Source: Escherichia phage SRT8. From it: a DNA stretch of 49,579 nucleotides. This document shows positions 1-49,507 of the stretch, piece by piece; within the stretch, counting starts at the first letter, position 1, and each line of letters starts with the position of its first letter. The notes beneath the pieces were generated by a model. The model was not told where the DNA came from and did no database searches. It saw nothing but the letters and a program-made list of their open reading frames with translations. The stretch lies in the sequence record MF996376, one strand, 5' to 3'. The position numbers and the translations under genes were made by a program.

Positions 1-377
1 CACGACGCGGGAAAGATATCAAGCCCCGCCAGCGATGCGGATTCTACATCCTGAAGGACGAAGTACGCGCCGGACTACGCGCCCGACTTGACGCGTTAAT
101 CGAATATTACGGTTCGCCGTCCGCAACAGCTAAGGCGCTGAAAGTGACCAATCAGAACGTGAACGAATGGAAAGTTCGCGGCATGATTTCGTGGCAAGGC
201 GCTGAAGCGGCGCATCGCGCATACCGCCGACAAGGTTGTAAAGGATATCGCGCAAGCTGGCTTCGCTTCGATATCAAGTTCGACAGTAACGGCAAGTGCT
301 TAGAAAAGCGTTGCAAGAATCGCAAGTTTATGCGCGTTGTTCGAAAAGATGAAACGACGCAAAGCACAAATAGCTAA
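1..377 (+). CDS. 5'-truncated ORF for a small basic protein with an XRE/Cro-like helix-turn-helix segment (AKALKVTNQNVNEW)
   Basis: Frame open from window edge to stop at 375-377; HTH-like motif; hairpin plus T-run follows at 384-420. Confidence 0.4.
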   Translation, partial: RRGKDIKPRQRCGFYILKDEVRAGLRARLDALIEYYGSPSATAKALKVTNQNVNEWKVRGMISWQGAEAAHRAYRRQGCKGYRASWLRFDIKFDSNGKCLEKRCKNRKFMRVVRKDETTQSTNS

Positions 378-380
378 AAC
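362..380 (+). promoter_or_regulatory. Copy of the repeated palindromic element (aagcacaaatagctaaaa), overlapping the stop codon of the upstream ORF
   Basis: Matches the genome-wide consensus; followed by hairpin 384-420 and the RBS of the 437 gene. Confidence 0.5.
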
Positions 381-383
381 AAT

Positions 384-420
384 GAACGCGTAGCGGGTTA
401 GAATCTCGTTACGCGTTTTT
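384..420 (+). terminator. Hairpin (ACGCGTA...TACGCGT) followed by a T-run; intrinsic terminator-like
   Basis: Inverted repeat with T6 tract read directly. Confidence 0.5.
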
Positions 421-436
421 TATTGGAGCAAAGAAG

Positions 437-1381
437 ATGCACGAAGATAATATGATGTACCAGAAAGAAGACGTTTTGCCATACATGAAAGGAATGTGGC
501 GGGAGGCGTTACAATCGATCTGCAACCTACCGAATGACGTGTTCAACAAAAAACACCAATCTTGCCCGAATTGCGGAGGTAAAGACCGCTTCAGATGGAC
601 GGACAAATTAAAGGAAGCTGGCGACGGCGGCGCGATCTGTAACTCTTGCGGCAACGATACCGGGATCGGCTGGATGATGAAGCTTACCGGGTGCGAATAC
701 AGCGAAGTGATTAACATCTTAGGCCGCTTTTTGGGTAAGGTTCCGCAAGAATACGTTATTAAGGCCAACAAAAAAGCCCGTCGAACTCCGGTTCACAATG
801 TCGGCGTAGCAATGGCGGAGCATGAACAATGTGTCGCAGTAATGGAGCGAACAGAAAAGCGCGACAGGACACCTCTTTCGATGTTTGAAGGGATTTATCT
901 TCCGGGAGATGAATCTTACGATGTGGGCGTAAAAACGCTGGAGAATGGCTGGGAATCGCTTATTCATGCGTTGCCGTGTCGCATGGTGCATGAAGACGGA
1001 TTAGACGATGAATTTTGCAATATCCTGTTTATCGACGAAGAAGGGCGCGAATCGTTTTACGCGAAGAAATATACAGCCGCCTCCGTTGTCGTGAGTGGTT
1101 CAACCGACAAGGCGATTTACCTTTGCCTAAACTGGATCGACTCGCAACATGTACACCTTGCAACAGGTCAAGAAGTCTGGACGTGCTTTACTCCTGAAAA
1201 TCTGGAAATGGTAGCCTATCGCTACAAAGGAGAACGGGAAATGCGCGTCGCATGTACGCCGAGAGATCGTGATACGCTTTACATGGCGGACGACAGGGAA
1301 TTGAAAGTTATCATTCCGAACGAAGGCGGCTTCCGATCTGGAATGCAACGAAAAATATTTAATGCAAGTGATTTACTCTAA
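437..1381 (+). CDS. Putative DNA primase-like protein with an N-terminal zinc ribbon
   Basis: CPNCGG...CNSCG four-cysteine ribbon typical of primase zinc-binding domains; GGAG RBS 10 nt upstream; terminator downstream. Confidence 0.5.
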   Translation: MHEDNMMYQKEDVLPYMKGMWREALQSICNLPNDVFNKKHQSCPNCGGKDRFRWTDKLKEAGDGGAICNSCGNDTGIGWMMKLTGCEYSEVINILGRFLGKVPQEYVIKANKKARRTPVHNVGVAMAEHEQCVAVMERTEKRDRTPLSMFEGIYLPGDESYDVGVKTLENGWESLIHALPCRMVHEDGLDDEFCNILFIDEEGRESFYAKKYTAASVVVSGSTDKAIYLCLNWIDSQHVHLATGQEVWTCFTPENLEMVAYRYKGEREMRVACTPRDRDTLYMADDRELKVIIPNEGGFRSGMQRKIFNASDLL

Positions 1382-1439: not shown

Positions 1440-1481
1440 CATGGTTTACCAAATAGTGCTATTTACTTGGAGGATTTACAA

Positions 1482-3792: not shown

Positions 3793-4446
3793 TTATTCGA
3801 AATCGTTGATTGATTGAGATTGTACCGCTTGACGCTGTTCCGGTTCAACTGGTTTTTTCTGTTCCGGCTTTTCAGCTGGGCGGAATCCGCGCGCTTTACC
3901 AACTTCAAATTTCGCTTTCAATTTGTTGTAGTGATCTTGGACGATTGCTTTGTTTGCCGCGTCACACTGTCTAAACGCTGTCGCCCAAACATCTTTTAAC
4001 TGTTCGAAATCTTCGCATTCGTCAAGATCCTTTTTCCAATCCGCCGCCGACTTGACAGCTAATTGCGCGTCGTCGTCCGCTTGGCTAATGCCCAATGCCG
4101 CTGCCAGTCCGTAACGTCGTGCGTATGTCATTGCAGATCCTACGCCTTGCGGGTCACGCTTCGCGATTGGCATTGACATAAAGAACCGGGCGAATTGACC
4201 GCTTTCCGCATGAATAAGCATCGTTTCAAGATGGAAGGTTGTGTCGGTGCTTGTGTCAAGCATGGATTGCATAATCATGATCCCGTTATCCGTCAATGCT
4301 GGGGTAACGGCCTCCATCATAGAATCAAGCGTCGCATATTTGTTTTTCAGGTGTGTGTTTTGCTTGTCTTTCTTGGCCTTTACGAACTTGCCACGCGCCT
4401 TAAACAGAGCCGGAAGGATTTGATCGGATTGTTGGGAAAGAATCAT
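3793..4446 (-). CDS. ERF-family single-strand annealing (recombination) protein
   Basis: Resemblance to Erf annealases (SAMTYARRYGL region); sits between SSB and an exonuclease as in phage recombination modules. Confidence 0.55.
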   Translation of the reverse strand: MILSQQSDQILPALFKARGKFVKAKKDKQNTHLKNKYATLDSMMEAVTPALTDNGIMIMQSMLDTSTDTTFHLETMLIHAESGQFARFFMSMPIAKRDPQGVGSAMTYARRYGLAAALGISQADDDAQLAVKSAADWKKDLDECEDFEQLKDVWATAFRQCDAANKAIVQDHYNKLKAKFEVGKARGFRPAEKPEQKKPVEPEQRQAVQSQSINDFE

Positions 4447-4507
4447 TCTGTTATCTCCTGATTTGTTTTGTTTACGGGATGAATTATATCACCCCGCATT
4501 TTATATG

Positions 4508-4528
4508 TTTAGCTATTTGTGCTGTTTA
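4508..4528 (-). promoter_or_regulatory. Copy of the repeated palindromic element (variant AACAGCACAAATAGCTAAA), with hairpin and TGaTATAAT box before the erf-like gene
   Basis: Motif, GC hairpin, -10-like box and conserved leader read in order on the minus strand. Confidence 0.5.
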
Positions 4529-5599: not shown

Positions 5600-6147
5600 T
5601 CGTTTATCTCCTTCGTTGATGATGTGGTCATTATAGCCAGTAGGAACATTTAGTCAACAGTTACGCTGTAATTGTGCGTAATCATTCCTTAGAAAAAATA
5701 CGATTACACAAAATCTCTATGTAATTCAATACTATAAAGCGTGTAAAGTTGCATGTATAAGATGTAAGCTTGTAATCACTCTATAGAGAAATATCAACAT
5801 TCCCCATCGATAACGCATCATTCCATAGAGAATCACTATCAATTTGAACGCATCACAAAAAACACGATTACATCGCTTACATTGATTACATGATAATTAC
5901 ACATATAAAAAACCAATTTAAGATTATTATTATTATCTATATATTATAAGGAGTTAGCGCATATCCGGGCGCTCTATAGCTGCTCAAATTTTGCGCGGAT
6001 TCTGTAATCATTAAAATCGTAGACAAAAATTACACAGATTACACGTAATAGGATTACGGCGTGATTTTTCCGGATCGCACTTTTTGCCAACAATCACGAT
6101 CGCAAACGTGTATAATGCCGATAAGCAAACGAATGGAGGGTTATAGG
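5600..6147. other. AT-rich non-coding hub with short repeats (gattaca-like iterons, TTA x5 tract, tgtataagatgtaagc block)
   Basis: About 550 bp without a credible ORF; shares conserved blocks with the hub at 35990-36700. Confidence 0.6.
6075..6116 (+). promoter_or_regulatory. Palindromic element variant (atcgcactttttgccaa) followed 18 nt later by TATAAT; putative promoter cassette for the lipoprotein gene
   Basis: Same arrangement as the early-gene cassettes. Confidence 0.45.
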
Positions 6148-6375
6148 ATGAAGAAGAAATTTATTGTCGCGGCGATTGCGTTAGCTCTGATTGGTTGTGC
6201 TGATATGCCGAAAAGAACGTGTACCGCTATATACGAATCTAGATCTAACAAATACGAAGTGTATGTGTTCGGAACGAGGCTCAATGGAGGGGAGTTAATG
6301 TTACGCGCCGGATACCCGTTCTCATTTCATTATGTAAACGAAAGGCAATTCACCACTCACGACTGCAAACGATGA
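6148..6375 (+). CDS. Small outer-membrane lipoprotein, Cor-like superinfection-exclusion candidate
   Basis: Signal peptide with lipobox LIGC (MKKKFIVAAIALALIGCAD); 75 aa; own promoter; adjacent to tail genes. Confidence 0.55.
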   Translation: MKKKFIVAAIALALIGCADMPKRTCTAIYESRSNKYEVYVFGTRLNGGELMLRAGYPFSFHYVNERQFTTHDCKR

Positions 6376-10868: not shown

Positions 10869-10890
10869 GTTTAACCTTTTGTGCTATTTA
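10869..10890 (-). promoter_or_regulatory. Palindromic element (AAATAGCACAAAAGGTTAAA) directly upstream of the J start, preceded by a TATAAT box at 10901-10906
   Basis: Late-gene arrangement: terminator, -10 box, element, ATG. Confidence 0.45.
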
Positions 10891-13051: not shown

Positions 13052-13075
13052 AAAAAAGCCCGCGCAAGGCGGGCT
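13052..13075 (-). terminator. Intrinsic terminator after gene M (GCCCGC-GCAAG-GCGGGC plus T6 on the minus strand)
   Basis: Hairpin and T-run; followed by a TAGAAT -10-like box before gene L. Confidence 0.6.
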
Positions 13076-13089
13076 ATTGTTAGATAGTG

Positions 13090-13443
13090 CTATTCCATAG
13101 ATGTAAACTGTTCGGAAAACGTAGCGCGGATTTCGTTCAATCCCGGCGCGATCGGGGTAAGCGCAACCGAACCAGACTTCACAATGAACAAGCCTAATTG
13201 TTCATCTGGCGGAAGCCATAAAAACGGCTTCAGTCGATGCCCGGTACAAAATGCCTTAACCGCCTTCCAATCATTGCCAGCGTATACGATCGTAAACTCC
13301 CGGCGCTCAGTGTTAAATCCAGACGATGCAACTTGCTTGTAGCCGTTACCGAAAACGACTTCCCTGTCGTTGTTCTCGGTAGTCATTGCGCCGCCGCTAT
13401 TCTGAATTTGTGTACACCATGTAAATTCGTCTAGCGTCGCCAT
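13090..13443 (-). CDS. Minor tail protein (lambda gpM-like)
   Basis: 117 aa, between tape measure and L as in lambda. Confidence 0.7.
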   Translation of the reverse strand: MATLDEFTWCTQIQNSGGAMTTENNDREVVFGNGYKQVASSGFNTERREFTIVYAGNDWKAVKAFCTGHRLKPFLWLPPDEQLGLFIVKSGSVALTPIAPGLNEIRATFSEQFTSME

Positions 13444-35018: not shown

Positions 35019-35039
35019 GGGTTTTAGCAATTCGTGCTA
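35019..35039 (-). promoter_or_regulatory. Palindromic element cassette
   Basis: AAATAGCACGAATTGCTAAAA with the TAG stop of the upstream gene inside it. Confidence 0.55.
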
Positions 35040-35318: not shown

Positions 35319-35376
35319 CCTGATAGGTTCCGTTGTCGTTGTCGATGTGTGCATTATGCCCGACTCCGTGCCGGGC

Positions 35377-35396
35377 TTTTTAGCAATTCGTGCTAT
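35377..35396 (-). promoter_or_regulatory. Palindromic element cassette
   Basis: ATAGCACGAATTGCTAAAA plus hairpin GCCCGGCAC/GGAGTCGGGC. Confidence 0.55.
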
Positions 35397-35986: not shown

Positions 35987-36429
35987 GGTTGTTTCTCCTG
36001 ATTGGTTTATGCAGACTTAGACAAAGATTGCACGTTGTATAAGCGCGTAATAATATCTTATTTTTTTGCTTTAGACAACACAATCCAGTAGCGACGCGCG
36101 TCACAAGGCTGTAAACATGCTTGTATAAGATGTATAAGATGTAAGCCCCCATAGAGATATTTAAGCATATGCGCATAAAACACTGTATATATACACAGAA
36201 AATCGCAATATATCAAATTTCACCCTTACATATAATACAAGTTTGACACGCTCTATATACAACAGCGTTTCTACTATATAAAAGCTAATTTAAAACTTAT
36301 TATTATTATATATATCATATAGTTAGCGCTAAACAGGCAGCTCCATGGGGTTGCTCACTTTTGCACCAATTTGTCTAAGTGACAAATCTAGCAAATTTTA
36401 GACAAGGATTACAAGCGTAATTTAGACAC

Positions 36430-36449
36430 GTAGCACGAATTGCTAAAAG
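36430..36449 (+). promoter_or_regulatory. Orphan palindromic element cassette (motif plus hairpin with TATAAC) not followed by a gene
   Basis: gTAGCACGAATTGCTAAAAg then GGGGA...TCCCC hairpin; no ATG with RBS downstream. Confidence 0.45.
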
Positions 36450-36623: not shown

Positions 36624-36642
36624 GAATAGCACTTTTTGCAAC
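36624..36642 (+). promoter_or_regulatory. Palindromic element cassette for the first rightward early gene
   Basis: AATAGCACTTTTTGCAACA, then TGgTATAGT, then leader ATCGAAACGAAGGAGA. Confidence 0.55.
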
Positions 36643-36698
36643 ACATCTGGCGGGTAGAGTTGGTATAGTTACTTCATCGAAACGAAGGAGATACAGAA

Positions 36699-36989
36699 AT
36701 GACCACTATCAGCAAAACGACAATCAACTTTGCACGCAAGCGCGGTTTAGACGTTACGATCGAGAACGTTGGCGAAGGTGACTTTATGGCGGTGTGGGAT
36801 CTGAATAATGATTGCGAATGGATGTTCACATATCAGGTCAATGATAACGGTTCATTCACTTATAACGGTAATGTGTGGTTGCCGGAAGATTTGAAAGAAG
36901 AGTTGCCCGGCACACTGAAAGATGAAAAGCACGTTCGCGAAATGCTGGCTTACATCGGCGCTAACCGTCACTTGTGGAAAGACTTATGA
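36699..36989 (+). CDS. Hypothetical protein (first rightward early gene)
   Basis: ORF with AAGGAG RBS. Confidence 0.5.
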   Translation: MTTISKTTINFARKRGLDVTIENVGEGDFMAVWDLNNDCEWMFTYQVNDNGSFTYNGNVWLPEDLKEELPGTLKDEKHVREMLAYIGANRHLWKDL

Positions 36990-37129: not shown

Positions 37130-37314
37130 CAGTGAAGATCTTAAAGCGATTCACCAATAAAGGGCAGTGCAAGACACTTGCCGATACCGTAGAACGCAAG
37201 GTCGATTTCTATACTGACAACCTGTTTCGCTTTTGGGGCGATCCGTTTAGCAATCGCGATTTCCTTATTTGGGAAAAGCTGAAGCAATGGCGTAAAACGT
37301 TTTGCGGGTACTAA
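37126..37314 (+). CDS. Hypothetical protein
   Basis: ORF; translational coupling. Confidence 0.45.
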   Translation: MTVKILKRFTNKGQCKTLADTVERKVDFYTDNLFRFWGDPFSNRDFLIWEKLKQWRKTFCGY

Positions 37315-37335
37315 ATAGCACTTTTTGTTAAAACA
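37313..37335 (+). promoter_or_regulatory. Palindromic element cassette
   Basis: AAATAGCACTTTTTGTTAAAA then hairpin GGGGT...ACCCC. Confidence 0.5.
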
Positions 37336-37393
37336 CAATAGGGGTGGTGTGGCATCATTACCCCATCGCAAACGAGACAAGAGGATCACAAGC

Positions 37394-37666
37394 ATGGGAC
37401 AGAATAAGACCGTTACCGAATCAGTGGAATACATCGCCGTTATGACTCTTCGCCCGGACACTATCGCGGTGCAATGCCTTAGCAACAAACAACCCGTTTA
37501 CGTGCCGCGCGACGAAGACGTCGTAGAGTTCTTGACCGATCCGAACTTCCTGTCGTTAATGGAGAAAGTGACCGATCATTACCGCTACGACGACAGAAGT
37601 TTAACGATGGTTCGTCTTGTGGTGAAAGAACGCAAAATCCGCACAACCACGGAGATAATCGAATGA
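37394..37666 (+). CDS. Hypothetical protein
   Basis: ATG behind the cassette leader. Confidence 0.45.
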   Translation: MGQNKTVTESVEYIAVMTLRPDTIAVQCLSNKQPVYVPRDEDVVEFLTDPNFLSLMEKVTDHYRYDDRSLTMVRLVVKERKIRTTTEIIE

Positions 37667-38399: not shown

Positions 38400-38551
38400 T
38401 TCGATATTACAACCACGAAACGAAATCATGGTATGTAATCGTAGGTCAACATGTACGCCGCTTAATGAAAGATGGTAGTTGGATTATCTCAGATCGCTAT
38501 AGTGTCGCCGACGTTGCGCATTATCCATTTACCTGGCATCGCGTCAAATAG
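38396..38551 (+). CDS. Hypothetical small protein (51 aa)
   Basis: ATGA overlap; its TAG stop lies in the next palindromic element. Confidence 0.35.
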   Translation: MIRYYNHETKSWYVIVGQHVRRLMKDGSWIISDRYSVADVAHYPFTWHRVK

Positions 38552-38566
38552 CACAAATTGCTAAAA
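38546..38566 (+). promoter_or_regulatory. Palindromic element cassette
   Basis: AAATAGCACAAATTGCTAAAA, hairpin GGGGTA...TACCCC, TGtTATAGT, leader. Confidence 0.55.
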
Positions 38567-38620
38567 CAACGACGGGGTATCTTGTTATAGTTACCCCATC
38601 GAAACGAAGGAGAAATAACA

Positions 38621-38845
38621 ATGAGTATCAAGATTGAAAATATTCTTAAGCACTACGCAGCAAAAGGGAAAGTAATTGTAAAACTGGATCGCGCGGCTGG
38701 ATATCATCAAATCACCATTAACAAAAGCCGTAGCGGTAATAACGTAGTCGGCACTATTCCGGGCGCTCGTTTAGTAAACGCAACAATGGCGGACGTTCGC
38801 GCCATGCTTGAAACTAACTCAATCTACATTAATTCGTGGGGTTAA
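38621..38845 (+). CDS. Hypothetical protein
   Basis: ORF with AAGGAGA RBS. Confidence 0.45.
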   Translation: MSIKIENILKHYAAKGKVIVKLDRAAGYHQITINKSRSGNNVVGTIPGARLVNATMADVRAMLETNSIYINSWG

Positions 38846-38848
38846 TCG

Positions 38849-39058
38849 ATGGAACAAGATAACTTTTGGACTCGTTATTTTACCGCGCTTTACGCTGGAT
38901 TGAATCGCGAATTTTGCTTGAAGGTGGCATATAAAGAAATGTCGCTAGATGAAGCGTTAGGCGATATGAACATGGACGACGAAAGCGAATTCGATCCGAA
39001 TTTCGTCATGACGGCGGAAGACAATTCCATCCCCGGCAAAGATTATATTCCGTGGTAA
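38849..39058 (+). CDS. Hypothetical acidic protein
   Basis: ORF. Confidence 0.4.
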   Translation: MEQDNFWTRYFTALYAGLNREFCLKVAYKEMSLDEALGDMNMDDESEFDPNFVMTAEDNSIPGKDYIPW

Positions 39059-39080
39059 ATAGCACGATTTGTTAATATTG
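39059..39080 (+). promoter_or_regulatory. Palindromic element cassette, variant B
   Basis: AATAGCACGATTTGTTAATA, then TGaTAAAGT within an inverted repeat. Confidence 0.45.
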
Positions 39081-39140
39081 CCGCAAGGTCATTTGATAAA
39101 GTGGCCTTATTCAAGATAACCAATCAGAAGGAATTACCCG

Positions 39141-39554
39141 ATGAAAACTATTAAACTGAAATGTACCCATTCCATTACAAAAACCTTCCAGACCAACAAC
39201 CTGATCACGGCAAAGGTTGACGACGAAGGAAATATTTATACCGGAAAAGGCAAGGCTAAAATATGGTTATCAGTCGGCGTTTCTGGTGAAATATTTTGCG
39301 ACGTAGCCGGGATTATCGCCGCGACTTTCATTGAACTGAAAACTAAAACGCTGAAGTGTACCGGGCTTGACCACAAAAACCCGGTTAAGAAATCGTTCAC
39401 TGTCGGCAAGCGATATCAAGTGGAAAGCGGACGCGCGTTAGGTGGCGTCGCGGGATACATATTCGATAAGGACGGCTGTCGATGGACACTCTTTCGTGAA
39501 GACGTCGGCTTCAGCATTGCGGACGGAACCACTTTCGAAGCGAAGTACCTGTAA
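39141..39554 (+). CDS. Hypothetical protein
   Basis: 137-aa ORF. Confidence 0.45.
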   Translation: MKTIKLKCTHSITKTFQTNNLITAKVDDEGNIYTGKGKAKIWLSVGVSGEIFCDVAGIIAATFIELKTKTLKCTGLDHKNPVKKSFTVGKRYQVESGRALGGVAGYIFDKDGCRWTLFREDVGFSIADGTTFEAKYL

Positions 39555-39556: not shown

Positions 39557-39578
39557 AATAGCACTTATTGCTAAAAGC
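39557..39578 (+). promoter_or_regulatory. Palindromic element cassette
   Basis: AAATAGCACTTATTGCTAAAAG, hairpin GGGGTA-taatc-TACCCC, leader AAGGAGA. Confidence 0.55.
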
Positions 39579-39629
39579 GTGTAGTATGGGCGGGGTATAA
39601 TCTACCCCGTTCAATAAGGAGATCTAGAA

Positions 39630-41195
39630 ATGCTTTTCGGTAAACCTAAACTTTCAGTTAGTCAAATCATTGAAATCGCAAATACGAACGGGATTAACCC
39701 GGTCGCGTTAGCCATTCGTGAGAACGGCTATCCTGATTCTCGATCGTTCTGGAGTCAGCCGGAACAGATTAACAGCGGAAACGATCAATTCCCGCTTATC
39801 TCTATTGCTGGCGACAACATCGTTTACGAATACGCGAAAGCAAAGGCTGAATCCGTCCAATTCCCTGTTTCGTCTGCCTACGCGCATTTTATCGGCTGTA
39901 TGTCCGCCGCCATGCTGGGGCGCTTTTGGGTGGAGTATCACGGCGAAGAACAACCTACCGCGCTTTACATGGTAATTAGCCAGCCGCCGTCTACTGGTAA
40001 ATCTGCGATTAACTCCGCCGCGATTAACCCAATGCGATCCGAAATTGACCGCATTAACGAAGCACGAAAGGCCGAACGTTCGCGCCTGATGGGGCAACTT
40101 CGCAACGTCGAACGCGAGATCAAGAACGACGTAAAAGGCAATTCAGCCGTAGCGCTTTACGAAGAAAAAGAGAAGTTAGAAGAGAAGATCAAGAAAATGG
40201 CTAACGTCGTGTTTGCTGTATCCGATCCAACTCCTGAAGGCTTGGCGAAGGTTGCAGCCGCGCAAGGTAACTTCTCCGTAATCTCGGACGAAGCAACGGC
40301 GATAAATACGCTTCTTGGCTTGACGTATGGCGGAACCGACAAGAAGGCGAACAGTGAACTAATCCTTAAAGCGTGGGATATGAACCACATGGAAGTAGCG
40401 CGTTCCAATCAGGATAACAACCTGTCGATTCGTCCCGTTGGCGCGATCTGCGTTATTGCTCAGGATGAAACTATACGCGGGATTATGGACGCCGGGCAAC
40501 GTGGGATCGGGGTATCGGAACGTTTCTTGCTAGTTCGTGAAGAGCCGTTGTTAGGTACGCGCACACTTTGCGACGAAAACGGCGACGCGGTATATAAGCC
40601 AGTAGAGCAATCGTTAGTTAGCAAATATTATCGCTTGATTCACAATATCATGAAGGAAGAGAAAGTCGTATTCACGCTAAACCGGAACGCGAACCGGGCG
40701 CTTAACTTGGCGCGTCAGGAAATGGAATCCAGCTTCGCGGCGGGCGGGCGTTATTCGCACTCTATGTTACGCGGTCATTTAGGCAAGTTCGATAAACACG
40801 TTATCCGTATCGCTTCAGTGCTTCACGCGATCCGTAACTGGACAGGTGAAAACCCGAACCGGGCAAACCGTGAGATCGATTTAGACACAATGCAGGAAGC
40901 GATCATGATATTCAACGAACTGTCGAAAACGTATCTGTCGTCGGCGAACGCGGCGGGCTTTGCAGGTGACGAAGCCGAATCCCGCAAGCTGTCGGAAGTG
41001 ATTACGGAAATGGCGCGTCGTTCAAAAGGTCGTGTACAGATCCACAGCCTGATTTCGAAGTGTCGCAACATTACCCCGTTCAACGGACAACAGAAGGTCG
41101 GCGAACGTATCGAAACGCTGTTGATTGAGTTAGAGCGAATGAACCATGTTTGCGTAGTTGACGACGTTGTTTATGTGAATCCATGTTTCCTATAA
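39630..41195 (+). CDS. P-loop ATPase, putative primase/helicase-type replication protein
   Basis: Walker A-like SQPPSTGKS; 521 aa; largest early gene. Confidence 0.5.
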   Translation: MLFGKPKLSVSQIIEIANTNGINPVALAIRENGYPDSRSFWSQPEQINSGNDQFPLISIAGDNIVYEYAKAKAESVQFPVSSAYAHFIGCMSAAMLGRFWVEYHGEEQPTALYMVISQPPSTGKSAINSAAINPMRSEIDRINEARKAERSRLMGQLRNVEREIKNDVKGNSAVALYEEKEKLEEKIKKMANVVFAVSDPTPEGLAKVAAAQGNFSVISDEATAINTLLGLTYGGTDKKANSELILKAWDMNHMEVARSNQDNNLSIRPVGAICVIAQDETIRGIMDAGQRGIGVSERFLLVREEPLLGTRTLCDENGDAVYKPVEQSLVSKYYRLIHNIMKEEKVVFTLNRNANRALNLARQEMESSFAAGGRYSHSMLRGHLGKFDKHVIRIASVLHAIRNWTGENPNRANREIDLDTMQEAIMIFNELSKTYLSSANAAGFAGDEAESRKLSEVITEMARRSKGRVQIHSLISKCRNITPFNGQQKVGERIETLLIELERMNHVCVVDDVVYVNPCFL

Positions 41196-41606: not shown

Positions 41607-41724
41607 ATTCAACACGGCGCTAATGTCTCTTCTGTTGTCTTCGATGCGGGCGTCCGGTGAAACGTGTCACAATCTGGCGGACGGCGACGGCGTTTGCATA
41701 TTGAGCGTGACGCGATACCAATAG
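41551..41724 (+). CDS. Hypothetical small protein overlapping the previous gene
   Basis: ATG with AAAGG RBS; overlap of about 55 nt. Confidence 0.3.
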   Translation: MLIDRSVEFCATHQLSEDEFNTALMSLLLSSMRASGETCHNLADGDGVCILSVTRYQ

Positions 41725-41740
41725 CACTTTTTGTTAAAAC
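41720..41740 (+). promoter_or_regulatory. Palindromic element cassette
   Basis: ATAGCACTTTTTGTTAAAA then hairpin TACCC...GGGTA. Confidence 0.5.
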
Positions 41741-41794
41741 TACCCGGTTAATTCAGGGTATTATCATTTCATAGAAACAAAAGTAGAAAGAAAA

Positions 41795-42043
41795 ATGGCT
41801 ACTTACCGCGTTAACTTCAAATCAAATGCCCGCACCGACGAACGCAAAGTCGAAACTGTTACAATCCCGGATTGCGTACCGTTTGCAGCACGTAACCGCG
41901 CGATTTGCGCAACGTTAAACGTAATGGGATACGACTTCGCAGCCGATCCGATTATCGTTACTAAGGCGGTAACAATCCACGCCGTAGAATGCGGAATCCC
42001 TGATGAAGTGAAGGTCGCGGAAAGTATCGACATTCTCGCATAA
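41795..42043 (+). CDS. Hypothetical protein (last rightward early gene)
   Basis: ORF; followed by a bidirectional terminator. Confidence 0.45.
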   Translation: MATYRVNFKSNARTDERKVETVTIPDCVPFAARNRAICATLNVMGYDFAADPIIVTKAVTIHAVECGIPDEVKVAESIDILA

Positions 42044-43480: not shown

Positions 43481-43588
43481 TTAAAATCCGTTGAAGTTGC
43501 CAGCTAAAGACAGAACCCACAAGAAGAACCCGGTAACAGCTACGCCAGCAACGAAAGGTACTACGGTTTTGATGATGAAGTCTTTCAT
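43481..43588 (-). CDS. Small hydrophobic peptide (35 aa), possible membrane-active or lysis-timing peptide
   Basis: MKDFIIKTVVPFVAGVAVTGFFLWVLSLAGNFNGF behind a full cassette. Confidence 0.35.
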   Translation of the reverse strand: MKDFIIKTVVPFVAGVAVTGFFLWVLSLAGNFNGF

Positions 43589-43644
43589 TTGTCTATCTCC
43601 TTTGTTTTGATGGGGTAACTATAACTCGTTACCCCGCGTTTGTC

Positions 43645-43666
43645 TTTAGCTATTCGTGCTATTTAT
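43645..43666 (-). promoter_or_regulatory. Palindromic element cassette
   Basis: AAATAGCACGAATAGCTAAAG, hairpin GGGGTAAC/GTTACCCC, TATAGT, leader. Confidence 0.55.
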
Positions 43667-45127: not shown

Positions 45128-45371
45128 TCTTCTGACTCTCCTTAAATTCCTTCATTATGCGCTTACCTTCTTCCCGGTAATATTCTAGACCGGGAACAGC
45201 CGGGACGCGGTGACATTTGCGTGGAAGCTCTTCAATGTAGGTTATCTTCCCGTTACCAATTATGCTAACGTCTTTTATATCTAAATACTTAGCAATTAGT
45301 GCGATCCCGTCCGCAAGCCCTGTTTCTTTTGCGTGTTCCCACACTGCCCGCTTGCCTGATTCTTTAATCAT
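45099..45371 (-). CDS. Hypothetical protein
   Basis: ORF, overlaps neighbours. Confidence 0.4.
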   Translation of the reverse strand: MIKESGKRAVWEHAKETGLADGIALIAKYLDIKDVSIIGNGKITYIEELPRKCHRVPAVPGLEYYREEGKRIMKEFKESQKNGKATRLKR

Positions 45372-45559
45372 GAATCACCTTCTTAACGTCTTCGATAAAG
45401 CTTTCGATCTCTTCGACGCTTGCGCGGTAATATGCCATTTTAAGAAACTTCATAGCGATATCCCAATCGAAGTTACCCGCGTGATATGTGGTTAACTCTA
45501 CGCCTTCACGCGCTGAAGATTGAGCCATTTCGAAAAAGTGTTTATTGATGCGAGTCATT
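45364..45559 (-). CDS. Hypothetical small protein
   Basis: Start at the ATG behind the cassette leader. Confidence 0.35.
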
Positions 45560-45614
45560 TGCTTATCTCCGTTTCGTTTTGATGAAATAATAATACCCGA
45601 CTTTCGCCGGGTAC

Positions 45615-45634
45615 GTTTAGCAATTAGTGCGATC
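45615..45634 (-). promoter_or_regulatory. Palindromic element cassette (variant GATCGCACTAATTGCTAAAC)
   Basis: Contains the stop of the upstream gene; hairpin and TATTAT box follow. Confidence 0.5.
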
Positions 45635-46567: not shown

Positions 46568-46879
46568 TTATGCTCCGTAAATTTCGCACTGAAGGTTAGT
46601 AATTTCGTGGCTATTGGAAAGCATCTTCCCGGTGAATCTGTCGCGAATCAATGCCGTGTTTTTGAAGAACTGATAGCGCGACTTGTAATTCAGGACAGAA
46701 CGAAAATCTTGTCCGTGAACTTTACCGCCAATCGTTAACGCTTCGGTTACGGCGTTATATTCGATCTGCTCGGTGTATTCGTGACCGTCGAACGTGTAGT
46801 CGCAATCATAATTAATATTGAAATCCTTCGCGCTAACTGAAGCGGCGAATAACATTGCGAGAAGTGCTAATTTTTTCAT
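46568..46879 (-). CDS. Secreted / periplasmic small protein
   Basis: N-terminal signal peptide MKKLALLAMLFAASVSA; cassette leader upstream. Confidence 0.45.
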   Translation of the reverse strand: MKKLALLAMLFAASVSAKDFNINYDCDYTFDGHEYTEQIEYNAVTEALTIGGKVHGQDFRSVLNYKSRYQFFKNTALIRDRFTGKMLSNSHEITNLQCEIYGA

Positions 46880-46933
46880 TTCTTTGTCTCCGTTGTTTCG
46901 ATGAAGCTATTATGCCGAATTCCCTTTCGGCTG

Positions 46934-46955
46934 TTTTAGCTATTCGTGCTCTTTT
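46934..46955 (-). promoter_or_regulatory. Palindromic element cassette (motif forms the 3' end of the VRR-NUC coding sequence)
   Basis: AAAGAGCACGAATAGCTAAAA followed by hairpin and leader. Confidence 0.5.
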
Positions 46956-47365
46956 AGCATTTCTTCGACAGCTAATTTAAATTGCTCTACGCCATAGGCG
47001 ACGGCGGCGAATCCTCCACGTTCGCGAACCTTACGCAAGAAAGATTTCTGTTCGTCGCTGACTAGTGACGCCTTTCCTTTGCCCGACTTATTGACGCGCT
47101 TCAATTCGATAGCGCCGAACGGGTAGCGGTGATTAAAACCAATCAGGAACACGAAGTCGCTAACGCCTTTCAATAATCCCGATTGCTGATCTATCATCGC
47201 CGTAACCTTGCTTTTCTCGTTCTCGTTCACGCTATGCCAGAACAGTAATTCAGGATGCCGAACCTTAACGAACGATGTACTTTCAATCTGGTGATTAACC
47301 TCCTTCCGTGTGTCGCTTGGATCGCGTTCGTAGAATTCTAAGTAGTCGCCTTTGTCGGTTATCAT
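46940..47365 (-). CDS. VRR-NUC domain nuclease (PD-(D/E)XK fold)
   Basis: GVSDFVFL...GAIELKR pattern typical of VRR-NUC; ATGA coupling with the helicase gene. Confidence 0.55.
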   Translation of the reverse strand: MITDKGDYLEFYERDPSDTRKEVNHQIESTSFVKVRHPELLFWHSVNENEKSKVTAMIDQQSGLLKGVSDFVFLIGFNHRYPFGAIELKRVNKSGKGKASLVSDEQKSFLRKVRERGGFAAVAYGVEQFKLAVEEMLKEHE

Positions 47366-49413
47366 TGCGGTATTTCCTCCATGCCGAAATCTTTACGGCT
47401 GATTAAGTCTTCTTTCTTCGCGTTCTTGCGGTGCGTCACGCGAACCGGGGCGGCGATGTGGTGCGCGTACTGCATGATCTTGATTGCGTTCTTCATGCCG
47501 ATGAAGTATTTGCGCATCTTCGGATCTGATACGTGCGGCAACACACCTTTAGTTTTCCACAACGTACCGCACACTTTCGCTTCGGATTCCGGGAAGAATC
47601 GTTCGTATGCGTTGAACTCACCTTCGCCGTTATCTAACACGTAATGGAATATTATTCCCTTTCTGTTTTTGGTCAACTGTACTTCGAACTTTTTAACGTC
47701 GTACCAATCGTTTTTCGTGTACGCCTTCCCGGATAGCTTCAGGTTAGGATCGACTAACGACACATCGCAACAACGACAGACACGCGCCACGACGTCATTT
47801 TTCGCCCCGCAACCTTTTACAAGGATCTTACCCGTTTTTTCGTCCTTCTGGTCTTCGCACGTTTGATACGTCCAGAAGTGTTCACATCGCTTTCCGTCGA
47901 TTACGTTAACACAACGGCGGGCGTAAAAGCTGTTTTCGTGTCCGCATAGTTCGCATTTCTTCGGATCTTTACCTGTTTCAAATCGACGTTGGTATTGCGC
48001 TTGCTCAAGTATCGGATCGAAATAAAGTTGCCCTAATTCGTCCATTGTCCCGGCGAAGTCCCAAACAAGATGATCTGTCTTCACCATTCCCGCTTCAATC
48101 TGCCATTTCTTCAGAAGTCGCATTCCGCGCCCTAAAAGCTGAATCAGCAAGGTAAGCGAACCAATCTTGCGGAGGATTACAGAGAAATCCCAATTCGGCA
48201 CGTTCACGCCAGTAGTTAACGCCATAACCTGAAACGTGTACTTAATCTTCCCGGCGCGAACGTCGTCTAAGATTGCCTGTCGTTGCTTCGCGTTGGTCTT
48301 GTCGGTAATGATCGCGTAAGTGCTTCCGGGCGGTAGTGCGGCGGCGGCTTCTTTGCAATGCCTTTGCCCGGCGCAAGTGATTAGAACCGCGTTCCGCTTC
48401 TCCGCCTCCTTTGCGACCATGTGCATAATCTGTTCGGTTAAAGACTTGTTCGCCAGCGCTTCGGCTTCCATCTTTTTCAAGTCTTTGTCGCTGAAGTCCG
48501 CTACGCCGTCTTCGCTGGATGCCGTGAAGCTGTCGTAGTTGTAGTGAACGCCTGAAGTAGATCCGAATACTGTCGGCACAACGGAACCGAATTCGATCAG
48601 GTAGTTGGTATCAATGTTCGTTACCTGCTCACGCCAGAATCCGACCATCTTCGGATTTTCGACAAGAATCGGCACAACTCCGCGATATTCCGATCCGGTC
48701 ATTCCGAACACTCGCAATTCGTGACCGTGAACCTCACGACAACGACGCATCATTTCAACAATGATTACGGTGTACTGTGAACGCTTTGTCCCGGTGACAG
48801 GTAAACCGTCTTTACCGATCAGCGGAATATCGCCATTCATTACGATTTGACCTTTATCCGCCGTCATTTGTTCGTAAGATTCGTCGCCCTCAATCGCTTT
48901 CGCTACGTCTTCCCAATCGACTTGGTGACATTCATCGATCCCGATTACGTGCGGCACGAAGTCGGATAGTTCGTTAAACAGGCCGTTACCGACAGTACCT
49001 TCGGAACCGACTACGATCGGGAAGTAGCAAGACTTGATACCCAGCGACGCGGAAAAGATAGAGTTAGGAACTCCGAAATTGTCGATCTCTTCACTATCCT
49101 GATCGACAATCTCACCCTGTCGGGCAAGAACCATCATTTTCAAGCCCATAGCTTGACACTGTTTCGCAACCATCGCGAAGATGATTGTTTTACCTGCCGA
49201 TACCGACGCCTTCACATAGAACGGGTGTTCGTAGTCCTTACCTAAGCGCTTCGCGATCTCGAAGTACGCCGCGACCTGATATTCGTAAGGCTTAATGTCG
49301 CCGACAGTGAAGCGCTCTTGTGTGCGCATGATATACTCTTCGCCCAGCATTTCGATCTGCTTTTTGATGTTTTGCGTTTTGAAATACTGTCGCGTTTCGT
49401 TGCTAATTTTCAC
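47362..49413 (-). CDS. Superfamily 2 DNA helicase (DEAH/DECH box) with C-terminal zinc ribbon
   Basis: GKT Walker A region, DECH motif (GIDECHQVD), Cys-rich C-terminal segment; GTG start with AAGGA RBS. Confidence 0.75.
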   Translation of the reverse strand: MKISNETRQYFKTQNIKKQIEMLGEEYIMRTQERFTVGDIKPYEYQVAAYFEIAKRLGKDYEHPFYVKASVSAGKTIIFAMVAKQCQAMGLKMMVLARQGEIVDQDSEEIDNFGVPNSIFSASLGIKSCYFPIVVGSEGTVGNGLFNELSDFVPHVIGIDECHQVDWEDVAKAIEGDESYEQMTADKGQIVMNGDIPLIGKDGLPVTGTKRSQYTVIIVEMMRRCREVHGHELRVFGMTGSEYRGVVPILVENPKMVGFWREQVTNIDTNYLIEFGSVVPTVFGSTSGVHYNYDSFTASSEDGVADFSDKDLKKMEAEALANKSLTEQIMHMVAKEAEKRNAVLITCAGQRHCKEAAAALPPGSTYAIITDKTNAKQRQAILDDVRAGKIKYTFQVMALTTGVNVPNWDFSVILRKIGSLTLLIQLLGRGMRLLKKWQIEAGMVKTDHLVWDFAGTMDELGQLYFDPILEQAQYQRRFETGKDPKKCELCGHENSFYARRCVNVIDGKRCEHFWTYQTCEDQKDEKTGKILVKGCGAKNDVVARVCRCCDVSLVDPNLKLSGKAYTKNDWYDVKKFEVQLTKNRKGIIFHYVLDNGEGEFNAYERFFPESEAKVCGTLWKTKGVLPHVSDPKMRKYFIGMKNAIKIMQYAHHIAAPVRVTHRKNAKKEDLISRKDFGMEEIPQ

Positions 49414-49426
49414 GAATTTTAATCCT

Positions 49427-49455
49427 TTGCGTAGATGCTTCGTTGATTGTATAAT
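49427..49455 (+). promoter_or_regulatory. Sigma70-like promoter (TTGCGT, 17-bp spacer, TATAAT) for the rightward gene at 49508
   Basis: Hexamers and spacing counted directly; palindromic element 49475-49493 sits in the leader. Confidence 0.55.
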
Positions 49456-49507
49456 ACACGCATTGACGAAACAGTTTTAACAAAAAATGCTATTGAGGAA
49501 TTTACTA

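What the first reader, a model, noticed from the sequence alone, without database searches (positions are those of the whole stretch)
362..49493. About 30 copies of a palindromic 20-bp element organised into conserved gene cassettes
A partly palindromic element (consensus AATAGCAC-N3-TTGCTAAAA; core TAGCA-N5-TGCTA, half-sites one helical turn apart) recurs in intergenic positions across the genome. Copies read at approximately 362, 1451, 4508, 6075, 10869, 13077, 16848, 20677, 27433, 28727, 29362, 29835, 31244, 31778, 32529, 33660, 34466, 35019, 35377, 36430, 36624, 37313, 38546, 39059, 39557, 41720, 43645, 45615, 46934 and 49475. In the early operons it is almost always gene-oriented and followed by a variable GC-rich hairpin, a -10-like hexamer (TATAGT, TATAAT, often with TGn), and a near-identical leader (TACCCCATC-AAAC-AAGGAGA, about 7 nt, ATG). 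If the hexamer is a real -10, the palindrome centre falls near -42, the class II activator position. In late genes and at 49475 the element instead lies between a -10 box and the RBS. Candidate roles: operator for a phage dimeric regulator (HTH proteins are encoded at 1-377 and 43663-44796), an activator-dependent early promoter family, or an RNA leader element. On the opposite strand the hairpins are followed by T-runs, so they could also terminate antisense transcription.
Basis: partly seen in the sequence, partly recalled or inferred. Interest (0 to 1): 0.85.

Follow-up and report, generated by a model that had tools for sequence, protein, structure and literature searches.

The report
Marbox-type early promoter cassettes of T1-like phage
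The repeated 20-bp element is the known but unexplained "21-nt intergenic repeat" of T1-like phages, and it matches in sequence, orientation and spacing the binding site (marbox) that the host stress activators MarA, SoxS and Rob use in place of a -35 box, which suggests the phage drives its early genes through these host antibiotic-resistance regulators.

Summary
AATAGCACNNNTTGCTAAAA with up to 3 mismatches occurs 27 times against 0.12 expected. The window is a T1-like phage (Drexlerviridae, near Sertoctavirus).

The element is not new as a repeat. The 2024 TLS genome paper reports the same consensus in TLS, T1, Rtp and Rogue1 and lists its function as an open question.

What I add:
- The element fits the published marbox consensus (10/10 and 11/12 specified positions).
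- It is always in the forward orientation.
- It lies 18 bp upstream of a (TGn) -10 hexamer, the same spacing as in the E. coli class II promoter micF, with its centre near -41.
- No -35 box is present.
- This geometry holds in 324 of 372 cassettes from over 30 related genomes.
- The phage encodes no detectable AraC-type protein.

The best explanation is a family of -35-less early promoters activated by host MarA/SoxS/Rob. Each sits in a PeSL-like cassette: stop codon, box, G+C stem-loop, -10, leader, SD. The cassettes also mark recombination joints.

Binding has not been tested. A phage Cro-like regulator that reads the 5+5 dyad remains a rival or a co-user of the site. The late-gene copies are only partly explained.

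The parts
360..439 (+). Early-type cassette upstream of the primase gene. Box 360-379, hairpin with T-run (terminator of the regulator gene) that encloses the -10 TAGAAT at 399-404, ATG at 437.
   Evidence: MFE -20.5, z -5.8
4444..4526 (-). Cassette upstream of the Erf-like gene. Box 4507-4526 (0 mismatches to the 20-bp marbox consensus), TGa-TATAAT at 4483-4488, ATG at 4446.
6073..6150 (+). Weak box (GATCGCACTTTTTGCCAACA), 18 nt, then TATAAT at 6111-6116. Small gene starts at 6148.
28669..28746 (-). Early cassette. Box 28727-28746, TATAGT at 28702-28707, start codon at 28671.
29302..29380 (-). Early cassette. Box 29361-29380, TGt-TAGAAT at 29336-29341, start codon at 29304.
29774..29854 (-). 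Early cassette. Box 29835-29854, TGt-TATAGT at 29810-29815, start codon at 29776.
31189..31274 (-). Early cassette. Box 31255-31274, TGc-TATAGT at 31229-31234 (20-nt spacing), start codon at 31191.
31718..31797 (-). Early cassette. Box 31778-31797, TATGAT at 31753-31758, start codon at 31720.
32470..32548 (-). Early cassette. Box 32529-32548, TGt-CATAAT at 32504-32509, start codon at 32472.
33591..33678 (-). Early cassette. Box 33659-33678, TGt-TATAGT at 33634-33639, start codon at 33593.
34407..34487 (-). Early cassette. Box 34468-34487, TATAGT at 34443-34448, start codon at 34409.
34963..35041 (-). Early cassette. Box 35022-35041 (perfect 20-mer), TACTAT at 34997-35002, start codon at 34965.
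35316..35397 (-). Early cassette. Box 35378-35397 (perfect 20-mer), CATAAT at 35353-35358, start codon at 35318.
36625..36701 (+). First cassette of the rightward early arm. Box 36625-36644 (degenerate 3' end), TGg-TATAGT at 36664-36669, ATG at 36699.
37314..37396 (+). Early cassette. Box 37314-37333, TGg-CATCAT at 37353-37358 (weak -10), ATG at 37394.
38547..38623 (+). Early cassette. Box 38547-38566 (perfect 20-mer), TGt-TATAGT at 38586-38591, ATG at 38621.
39058..39143 (+). Early cassette. Box 39058-39077, TGa-TAAAGT at 39097-39102, ATG at 39141.
39557..39632 (+). Early cassette upstream of the 521-aa helicase-like gene. Box 39557-39576 (perfect 20-mer), TATAAT at 39596-39601, ATG at 39630.
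41720..41797 (+). Early cassette. Box 41720-41739, TATTAT at 41759-41764, ATG at 41795.
43586..43663 (-). Early cassette. Box 43644-43663, TATAGT at 43618-43623, start codon at 43588.
45556..45634 (-). Early cassette. Box 45615-45634 (0 mismatches to the marbox consensus), TATTAT at 45590-45595, start codon at 45558.
46877..46953 (-). Early cassette. Box 46934-46953, CATAAT at 46909-46914, start codon at 46879.
49411..49494 (-). Helicase promoter cassette. Box 49475-49494, TATTAT at 49451-49456, GTG at 49413. On the other strand, TTGCGT-17-TATAAT overlaps this -10 and would drive the regulator gene.
49507..49579 (+). 5' part of the 149-aa Cro/YdaS-type HTH regulator gene, which continues at window 1-377. 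Its RBS abuts the reversed box.
1..377 (+). 3' part of the same regulator gene. Its TAA stop lies inside box 360-379.
20675..20702 (-). Major-capsid late promoter TTGACG-16-TGc-TATCAT. The reversed box (20677-20696) fills its spacer and supplies the TG and the start of the -10. Conserved in T1.
   Evidence: Marbox in a promoter spacer gives repression at pbpG (PMC12052159).
16846..16865 (+). Reversed copy (relative to the late genes) between a -10-like TAGAAT box and the RBS of the tape-measure-chaperone gene. In the antisense direction it also keeps TGa-TACGAT 19 nt downstream.
1444..1463 (-). Reversed copy immediately upstream of the RBS of the tail-fibre gene, preceded by TGc-TAAAAT. Conserved in T1.
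10869..10888 (-). Forward copy between a TATAAT box and the ATG of the tail-tip (J-like) gene. No -10 lies downstream of the box.
27432..27451 (-). Forward copy just upstream of the terS RBS. It is overlapped at its 5' end by a TGc-TAAAAT / TAATAT -10-like box that follows a terminator.
36429..36448 (+). Orphan copy with no -10 at the standard distance, next to the AT-rich region between the two divergent early arms. The T1 counterpart lies at the T1 genome end.
45287..45306 (-). Weak copy (GATCGCACTAATTGCTAAGT) with TAGCAT 19 nt downstream. A T1 counterpart exists.
13075..13094 (-). Half copy (AATAGCAC only), followed by a terminator and a TAGAAT -10-like box.

Best explanation
The element is the upstream recognition box of the phage's early promoter family, and these promoters have no -35 hexamer. 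Each cassette of about 75-85 bp reads as follows: a stop codon for the preceding ORF (inside or abutting the box), the 20-bp box, an 18-bp spacer, a -10 hexamer (often preceded by TGn), a CATC start region, an A-rich leader with SD, then ATG.

The box is a consensus marbox in the forward orientation. It is placed exactly as in the E. coli class II promoter micF, 18 bp from the -10 and centred near -41. The most likely mechanism is therefore this. A monomer of a host MarA/SoxS/Rob-family activator binds the box through GCAC (first HTH) and YTAAA (second HTH). It then recruits sigma-70 RNA polymerase in place of -35 recognition. Rob is the only one of the three that is constitutively abundant (from my own knowledge). 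This would let about 23 early promoters fire before any phage protein exists.

The variable G+C stem-loop lies between the box and the -10, or across the -10. It forms in RNA that reads through from upstream and probably attenuates that read-through or stabilises the upstream message, as was shown for the stem-loops of T4-type PeSL cassettes. The cassettes also stop translation and serve as homology islands for swapping ORFs.

What is shown: the sequence match, orientation, spacing, absence of a -35, conservation across the family, the hairpin statistics, and the absence of a phage AraC-type protein. What is inferred: the transcription start, the identity of the bound protein, activation itself, and the hairpin function.

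My separate estimates:
- The box is a promoter-coupled upstream element: about 0.9.
- It is read by host MarA/SoxS/Rob: about 0.5.
For: (1) Published marbox patterns are strongly enriched. gcannwwntgnnaaa occurs exactly 17 times against 0.73 expected. AYnGCACnnWnnRYYAAAYn with <=1 mismatch occurs 22 times against 1.07 expected (consensus from PMC12052159; the AYn... form is from my memory of Martin et al. 1999).

(2) The phage PWM follows marbox degeneracy even where it varies. Positions 10-11 are W, position 14 is R (G), and position 15 is Y (C .63 / T .30). The dyad partner of position 15, G5, is invariant.

(3) Geometry. The -10 lies at one fixed offset. E. coli micF read from MG1655 is marbox ACAGCACTGAATGTCAAAAC, 18 bp, TAGAAT, 7 nt, then +1. 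That is the same spacing and orientation. fumC has its -10 at 17-19 bp. The literature reports that forward sites peak at -41 and that class II promoters lack a -35 (PMC10268841; PMC8811837).

(4) Canonical -35/-10 promoters are not enriched in the early region: 21 found against 27 expected.

(5) Of 372 unique cassettes from more than 30 T1-like genomes, including T1, TLS, Rtp and the podovirus-like C130_2, 324 have exactly 18 bp.

(6) No MarA/SoxS/Rob homologue appears in six-frame searches (all E > 1). No AraC-type Pfam domain appears in the 20 early proteins of 81-197 aa that were scanned, nor in the two HTH candidates.

(7) The E. coli mar marbox ATGCCACGTTTTGCTAAATC is 16/20 identical to the phage T-type box.

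(8) Hairpins. MFE is -10.4, against -6.8 when 3' arms are swapped between cassettes and -4.7 when shuffled. The sense strand is more stable than the antisense strand. In PeSLs the stem-loops sit between the -35 and -10 or over the -10, and they attenuate transcription experimentally (PMC2839356).

(9) Cassettes bound non-homologous ORF replacements relative to T1 and BrunoManser. The upstream stop codon lies within or abutting the box (box positions -4 to +18) in 20 of 20 cases.
Against: - No binding, transcription-start or host-mutant data exist. The match to the marbox was found post hoc.
- The phage box is more conserved than the marbox consensus requires (A at position 4, TT at positions 12-13). 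These extra positions are the ones that create the 5+5 dyad TAGCA/TGCTA, which would suit a dimeric HTH protein. Built-in stop codons (TAG at 3-5, TAA at 16-18) may explain part of this conservation.
- About half of the -10s carry TGn and could work without any activator.
- MarA and SoxS are scarce in unstressed cells, and Rob is reported to be largely inactive until induced (my own knowledge).
- Five late-gene copies lie downstream of -10-like boxes, in either orientation. Class II activation does not explain them.
- A phage 94.5% identical to C130_2 over the compared 8-kb segment is recorded on Stutzerimonas. I have not checked whether that host has MarA/SoxS/Rob orthologues.
Confidence: 0.5

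Rival explanations
1. The element is an operator for the phage's own 149-aa Cro/YdaS-type HTH protein. A dimer would bind the dyad TAGCA-N5-TGCTA. It would either shut off early promoters by occupying the -41 site or regulate late promoters and its own gene. This could coexist with host-activator use of the same box.
For: - A 5+5 dyad with half-sites 10 bp apart is present.
- The regulator is conserved across Drexlerviridae.
- One copy abuts its RBS and lies in its predicted 5'UTR.
- Late-gene copies sit at operator-like positions, from about +1 to +45 or in the promoter spacer.
- Conservation of A4, T12 and T13 goes beyond what the marbox consensus needs.
Against: - Strongly conserved flanks (C8, T12, A2, A18-19) are asymmetric, and C15 is degenerate while its dyad partner G5 is invariant.
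- A strict single orientation and a fixed 18-bp distance to the -10 are not needed for repression.
- The recognition helix varies (TNQNVNEW, NLKTVWGW, TPQAVEEW) while the DNA motif stays constant.
- C130_2 keeps the cassettes but has no clear homologue (best E = 0.18), and it shares only enzymes with this phage.
- A phage-made protein cannot activate -35-less promoters at time zero.
Confidence: 0.25
2. The element is a factor-independent promoter element. The box would be read directly by RNA polymerase, as an UP-element or enhancer contacted by the alpha-CTD or by sigma, as the TLS authors suggested. It would boost extended -10 promoters.
For: - The position upstream of the -10 and the A-tract at the 3' end fit this idea.
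- About half of the promoters have TGn.
- The TLS paper suggests it (PMC11447400).
Against: - Invariant G and C positions (G5, C6, C8, G14) and about 25 bits of information are unlike A/T-rich UP elements.
- The A-tract lies at about -35 to -32, not at -40 to -60.
- Promoters without TGn and without a -35 (for example cgaTATAGT and gggTATTAT) would be very weak unaided.
Confidence: 0.15
3. The element is an L5-type 'stoperator' or an RNA-level element: a site that blocks elongating polymerase, or a leader or processing signal in the mRNA.
For: - The copies are intergenic, in one orientation and numerous, as the TLS authors noted.
- The box is transcribed in read-through RNA.
Against: - The box is locked to the -10 (19 nt) and not to the start codon (53-65 nt).
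- It lies upstream of the predicted transcription start.
- There is no Rfam match.
- The annotated relatives show no integrase or repressor, and the TLS paper describes TLS as virulent.
- A 5-bp stem from the dyad would be marginal.
Confidence: 0.05

Closest known systems
The 21-nt intergenic direct repeat of T1-like phages (TLS, T1, Rtp, Rogue1); German, Kropinski, Misra et al. 2024, PMC11447400
   Same: The consensus is the same (aaATAGCACnnnTTGnTAAAA). [quoted passage not shown] The middle triplet falls into the same A, T and G subtypes.
   Different: The element itself does not differ; this is the same element in another genus. That paper leaves the function open, suggesting a stoperator, an enhancer or an UP element. 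It does not mention MarA, SoxS, Rob or the marbox.
Class II MarA/SoxS/Rob (RamA) promoters of Enterobacteriaceae, e.g. micF, fumC, lpxL, rfaY
   Same: Both have an asymmetric 20-bp marbox in the forward orientation, 18 bp upstream of the -10 and centred near -41. Both lack a recognisable -35 and keep a canonical -10.
   Different: The phage boxes are much closer to consensus and nearly identical to one another. There are about 23 of them in 22 kb. A G+C stem-loop occupies the spacer. Binding by the host proteins is untested.
PeSL (promoter-early stem-loop) mobile regulatory cassettes of T4-type phages; Arbiol 2010, Comeau 2014
   Same: [quoted passage not shown] Both contain an early promoter plus a G/C stem-loop (with G-T pairs) between the upstream box and the -10 or over the -10. 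Both flank small ORFans and mark insertion and replacement joints.
   Different: PeSLs carry a canonical TTGACA -35. Here a marbox replaces it. The phage family is different. Terminator function and mini-circle formation are untested here.
T4 middle promoters (MotA box plus AsiA, 'sigma appropriation')
   Same: An activator box (..TGCTT..) replaces the -35 and is combined with a good or extended -10 (my own knowledge; PmSL mention).
   Different: The MotA box is centred at -30 and is read by phage-encoded MotA after AsiA remodels sigma. Here no phage activator is detectable, and the box is centred at -41.
Repression by a marbox inside the core promoter (pbpG; from memory also rob, hdeA, purA)
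   Same: The major-capsid late promoter carries the reversed box in its -35/-10 spacer. At pbpG, a marbox overlapping the spacer gives repression by MarA/SoxS.
   Different: This applies to only one late promoter here. The other late copies lie downstream of the -10-like boxes.

Membership tests
T1-like 21-nt intergenic repeat (TLS 'DR') | Consensus aaATAGCACnnnTTGnTAAAA | tested here: met
   The PWM consensus is AATAGCAC[G/T][A/T][A/T]TTG[C/T]TAAAA.
T1-like 21-nt intergenic repeat (TLS 'DR') | Intergenic, in the direction of transcription, about 76 nt upstream of start codons | tested here: met
   The repeat start lies 73-85 nt upstream of the ATG and is co-oriented with the gene in 23 cassettes.
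Class II marbox (MarA/SoxS/Rob) promoter | Asymmetric marbox sequence (gcannwwntgnnaaa / AYnGCACnnWnnRYYAAAYn) | tested here: met
   The consensus matches 10/10 and 11/12 specified positions. There are 17 exact matches against 0.73 expected.
Class II marbox (MarA/SoxS/Rob) promoter | Forward orientation (GCAC distal, AAA proximal to the -10) | tested here: met
   All early cassettes are in this orientation, the same as micF.
Class II marbox (MarA/SoxS/Rob) promoter | Overlaps the -35 position, centred about -41 (18-19 bp from the -10) | tested here: met
   The distance is 18 bp in 324 of 372 cassettes, and micF also has 18 bp. The -10 and +1 are predicted, not mapped.
Class II marbox (MarA/SoxS/Rob) promoter | No recognisable -35 hexamer, canonical -10 | tested here: met
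   The canonical promoter scan flags only 1 cassette. Overall it finds 21 sites against 27 expected.
Class II marbox (MarA/SoxS/Rob) promoter | Bound and activated by MarA, SoxS or Rob | not testable with these tools
   This needs EMSA or footprinting, in vitro transcription and host mutants.
PeSL-type mobile regulatory cassette | Early promoter plus stem-loop between the upstream box and the -10, or over the -10, running from the upstream stop to the downstream ATG | tested here: met
   Across related genomes, 226 of 372 stems span the -10 and 105 lie in the spacer. In the window, 18 of 23 cassettes have z < -2.
PeSL-type mobile regulatory cassette | Canonical sigma-70 -35 (TTGACA) with a 17-bp spacer | tested here: not met
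   The -35 is replaced by the box.
PeSL-type mobile regulatory cassette | Flanks ORFans and coincides with indel or replacement joints | tested here: met
   In the early region, more than half of the unaligned-segment edges against T1 fall at cassette borders.
PeSL-type mobile regulatory cassette | The stem-loop terminates or attenuates transcription | not testable with these tools
   Most stems lack a T-run, and terminator-like sites are not enriched. The function is inferred from PMC2839356 only.
Sigma-54 promoter | TGGCAC-N5-TTGC (GG and GC 10 bp apart) | tested here: not met
   The phage has TAGCAC-N3-TTGC. The spacing is 2 bp shorter and AG replaces GG.
Two-fold symmetric HTH-dimer operator | Equal conservation of both half-sites and their flanks | tested here: not met
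   Only 5+5 bp are symmetric. C8/T12 and A2/A18 are asymmetric, and G5 is 1.00 against C15 at 0.63.
UP element | A/T-rich tract at -40 to -60 without invariant G/C | tested here: not met
   G5, C6, C8 and G14 are invariant.
L5-type stoperator | An asymmetric site bound by a phage repressor that blocks elongation, independent of promoter geometry | tested here: inconclusive
   Orientation bias is met. The fixed distance to the -10 argues against. No repressor is identified.

The most novel reading that the evidence does not exclude
T1-family virulent phages may run their whole early programme on the host's MarA/SoxS/Rob stress and antibiotic-resistance activators. About 23 consensus class II marbox promoters would drive the early genes. 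The same factor would hold down at least the major-capsid late promoter, which carries a reversed marbox in its spacer, and possibly other late promoters through face-to-face antisense promoters. Phage development would then be tuned by salicylate, bile, oxidative or antibiotic stress. The early-to-late switch would follow loss or displacement of the host factor, for example through host shut-off, turnover of MarA/SoxS, or competition from the phage Cro-like protein.
Probability: 0.25. Interest if true: 0.9.

Novelty: new member of a known kind. Interest (0 to 1): 0.7.

Why it matters
[quoted passage not shown] The marbox reading turns that question into a set of simple experiments. If it is right, a whole family of classic virulent coliphages uses the host's multiple-antibiotic-resistance regulators as its early transcription factor. 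That would link phage infection efficiency to antibiotic, bile and oxidative stress, which bears on phage-antibiotic combinations and on gut ecology. It would also explain why conventional promoter searches find almost no promoters in these genomes. Finally, it would extend the PeSL idea of mobile promoter/stem-loop cassettes to a second, unrelated phage family.

Tried and rejected
- Sigma-54 promoter. The spacing is 2 bp too short and there is no GG.
- TTGCTA as a -35. It lies 23 bp from the -10, which is too far.
- The right half TGcTAAAAc as an extended -10. It lacks the final T in early cassettes. A TGcTAAAAT variant does occur at two late genes.
- Sigma-32 reading of CCCCAT. No -35 lies at a workable distance, and only a subset of cassettes have CCCC. 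The conserved part is CATC, the start region.
- OxyR, CRP, DnaA, IHF and LexA consensus sequences, compared from memory. None fits.
- A phage-encoded MarA-like protein. Pfam on 22 proteins found no AraC-type HTH.
- Known RNA families. There are no Rfam matches.
- Antisense terminators. They are not enriched.
- Literature linking T1-like repeats or phage promoters to the marbox, MarA, SoxS or Rob. None was found.
- The Rtp genome paper could not be opened.
- A single consensus structure for the hairpins. Stem positions shift by 1-10 nt between cassettes, so I used an arm-swap control instead of a column-wise covariation count.

Full report
**What the window is.** The 49,579-bp window is a complete or nearly complete T1-like siphophage genome. 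Its closest relatives are Citrobacter phage IME-JL8 (95% identity) and Escherichia phage BrunoManser, also called Bas12 (93% identity; Drexlerviridae, Tunavirinae, Sertoctavirus). The late structural genes lie on the minus strand at roughly 6.4-27.4 kb. Small early genes fill 27.5-36.2 kb (minus strand), 36.7-42 kb (plus strand) and 43-49.4 kb (minus strand).

**Check of the observation.**
- The 20-mer AATAGCACNNNTTGCTAAAA with up to three mismatches occurs 27 times, against 0.12 expected.
- The strict dyad TAGCA-N5-TGCTA occurs 10 times, against 0 expected.
- A PWM built from these copies finds 30 sites.
- Nearly all listed coordinates are right. The copy listed at 31244 is really at 31255. 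The copy at 13077 is only a left half. The copies at 6073 and 45287 are weak.
- In the early regions every copy points the same way as the genes.

**Anatomy of the cassette.** I aligned all copies on the box.
- A -10 hexamer (TATAGT, TATAAT, TAGAAT, CATAAT or TATTAT) sits exactly 19 nt after the 20-mer in 20 of 30 copies. No other offset is enriched. About half of these hexamers are preceded by TGn.
- The distance from the box to the start codon varies from 53 to 65 nt, so the box is tied to the -10 and not to the RBS.
- The sequence after the hexamer ends in a conserved CATC. This places the likely start at the A, followed by an A-rich leader and GGAG.
- No -35 is present. A canonical -35/-10 scan of the early region finds 21 sites against 27 expected and flags only one cassette.
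- In 20 of 20 cassettes with a co-oriented upstream ORF, that ORF's stop codon lies inside or abutting the box (box positions -4 to +18). Ten use the TAG at box positions 3-5.

**The hairpin.** The segment made of spacer, -10 and the next 14 nt folds at a mean of -12.3 kcal/mol, and 18 of 23 cassettes have z < -2. I repeated the test on 372 unique cassettes from related genomes.
- The mean MFE is -10.4. It drops to -6.8 when the 3' arms are exchanged between cassettes and to -4.7 after shuffling.
- The two arms therefore co-vary within each cassette while differing between cassettes.
- 226 stems span the -10 and 105 lie within the spacer.
- The sense strand folds better than the antisense strand and uses more G-T pairs. 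This points to an RNA hairpin in transcripts that read through from upstream. The significance is inflated by related sequences.
- The hairpins are not canonical terminators on either strand.

**Already described as a repeat.** The TLS genome paper (PMC11447400) reports a 21-nt direct repeat, aaATAGCACnnnTTGnTAAAA. It has 18 intergenic copies in the direction of transcription, about 76 nt upstream of start codons, and it also occurs in T1, Rtp and Rogue1. The authors suggest stoperators, enhancer sites or UP elements, and they list its function among the unanswered questions for the field. The paper does not mention MarA, SoxS, Rob, AraC or the marbox. Seven further literature searches found no such link.

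**What the box matches.** The phage consensus is A-A-T-A-G-C-A-C-[G/T]-[A/T]-[A/T]-T-T-G-[C/T]-T-A-A-A-[A/C].
- It fits the marbox as defined by the Grainger laboratory, gcannwwntgnnaaa, at all ten specified positions.
- It fits the classical 20-bp form AYnGCACnnWnnRYYAAAYn at 11 of 12 specified positions. I recalled this form from Martin et al. 1999, which is cited.
- Both patterns are strongly enriched in the window: 17 exact matches against 0.73 expected, and 22 matches with at most one mismatch against 1.07 expected.
- The positions that vary in the phage vary as the marbox allows: W-W in the middle and Y at position 15.
- I selected sites only by GCAC plus a -10 at the fixed distance, leaving the right half free. 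The 300 resulting sites show C .63 / T .30 at position 15, while its dyad partner G5 is invariant. They also show asymmetric conserved flanks. This pattern suits a monomer with two different HTH motifs. It does not suit a symmetric dimer.

**Geometry compared with real host promoters.** I read the micF promoter from E. coli MG1655. It is ACAGCACTGAATGTCAAAAC, 18 bp, TAGAAT, 7 nt, then the annotated +1.
- The phage cassettes have the same 18 bp in the same frame and the same forward orientation. This gives a centre near -41.
- fumC has a perfect marbox with its -10 at 17-19 bp.
- The host's own mar marbox, ATGCCACGTTTTGCTAAATC, is 16/20 identical to the phage T-type box.
- Published maps show forward sites peaking at -41. 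They also report that class II promoters lack a -35 but keep a normal -10. Cryo-EM work places RamA at about -41 on micF.

**Distribution.** An exact-pattern scan of viral contigs hit dozens of 46-52 kb genomes.
- In these genomes most marbox matches are followed by a -10 at 17-19 bp. Examples are TLS (14 of 16) and Rtp (13 of 15).
- Of the 372 unique cassettes, 324 have exactly 18 bp.
- T1 itself shows the same cassettes.
- So does Escherichia phage C130_2 (Hungariovirus). It has P22-like structural genes but a T1-like replication module.

**Who reads the box?**
- No AraC-type domain is found in the two HTH candidates or in the 20 early proteins of 81-197 aa that I scanned.
- The phage regulator wraps the window ends (49507-49579 plus 1-377; 149 aa). 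It is a Cro/YdaS-type single HTH. It is conserved across Drexlerviridae, but its recognition helix varies while the box does not.
- C130_2 has no clear homologue of that regulator, and it shares only enzymes with this phage.
- Promoters without a -35, half of them also without TGn, must fire before any phage protein exists.
- Together these points favour a host factor of the MarA/SoxS/Rob family, with moderate confidence. A later role for the phage Cro-like protein on the 5+5 dyad is not excluded.

**The cassettes as modules.** Compared with T1 and BrunoManser, the non-homologous segments in the early region typically begin at the end of one box and end at the leader of the next cassette. Together with the built-in stop codons, this reproduces the PeSL concept of T4-type phages. 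In PeSLs the stem-loop lies between the -35 and -10 or over the -10, carries G-T pairs, and was shown to attenuate transcription. Here a marbox stands where PeSLs have TTGACA.

**Late-gene copies: only partly explained.** Five copies are conserved between T1 and this phage.
- At the major-capsid gene the reversed box fills the spacer of a canonical promoter, TTGACG-16-TGc-TATCAT. A marbox in the spacer represses pbpG, so repression is plausible here.
- At terS, the tail-tip gene, the tape-measure-chaperone gene and the tail-fibre gene, the box lies between a -10-like box that follows a terminator and the RBS. It occurs there in either orientation.
- Two reversed copies (16846, 20677) also keep a -10-like hexamer 19 nt downstream in the antisense direction.
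- At the helicase/regulator intergenic region, two divergent promoters share overlapping -10 elements.
- These arrangements suggest switch-like promoter competition, but that is speculation.

**Verdict.** The most likely function is the activator box of a -35-less early promoter family. The box is indistinguishable in sequence, orientation and spacing from a class II marbox. This gives a concrete and testable answer to a stated open question. Binding and activation by MarA/SoxS/Rob remain unproven.

Noticed in passing
window 36180-36330: A very AT-rich stretch with repeated TATATA/ATATAT motifs lies between the two divergent early arms. In T1 the equivalent place holds the physical genome ends. 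It may be a packaging or replication-related region, or strong divergent promoters.
   Followed up: no
window 49440-49506 (both strands): The helicase promoter (-10 TATTAT, minus strand) and a canonical TTGCGT-17-TATAAT promoter for the Cro-like regulator gene (plus strand) share overlapping -10 hexamers (GTATAATAC). The regulator's 5'UTR runs through the reversed box.
   Followed up: partly
window 20625-20702 (minus strand); T1 locus L124 15060-15140: The major-capsid promoter is followed, before the RBS, by a hairpin with a T-run (AAAGCCGTTATCAATTAACGGCTTTT). This puts a terminator-like structure inside the 5'UTR of the most abundant late gene. It may be an attenuator.
   Followed up: partly
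window 1424-1443, 10890-10925, 16891-16900, 27452-27470: The late genes share a -10-like box, CTGTAnAAT or TGcTAAAAT, placed directly after rho-independent terminators. No -35 is present. This matches the 'transcripton' idea proposed for T1.
   Followed up: partly
box positions 3-5 and 16-18 in all early cassettes: The box carries TAG and TAA in two different frames, and a TAA often precedes it in the third frame. Any ORF that runs into a cassette is therefore terminated there. Ten of 20 upstream ORFs use the internal TAG.
   Followed up: yes
locus L123 (Escherichia phage C130_2, NC_048067): This phage has P22-like structural genes (tail needle, ejection proteins). It also has a T1-like primase/helicase/recombination module and the same box-plus-18-bp-plus-(-10) cassettes. 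The regulatory cassettes therefore travel with the replication module across phage families.
   Followed up: partly
OR754315.1: A phage recorded on Stutzerimonas stutzeri (vB_SstS_STP9) is 94.5% identical to the E. coli phage C130_2 over the compared 8-kb segment. Either the host range is unusual or the host label is doubtful. This matters for the host-factor hypothesis.
   Followed up: no
Its positional counterpart in T1 is annotated as a DNA repair exonuclease.
   Followed up: partly
window 35316-35358: The mechanical ORF call starts gene 35037-35354 at an ATG that lies inside the -10 hexamer (CATAATG). The real start is more likely the ATG at 35318, after the SD. Several other small early ORFs (starts at 28671, 29304, 31191, 32472, 33593, 34409, 43588, 45558) are defined better by the cassettes than by the longest-ORF rule.
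   Followed up: partly
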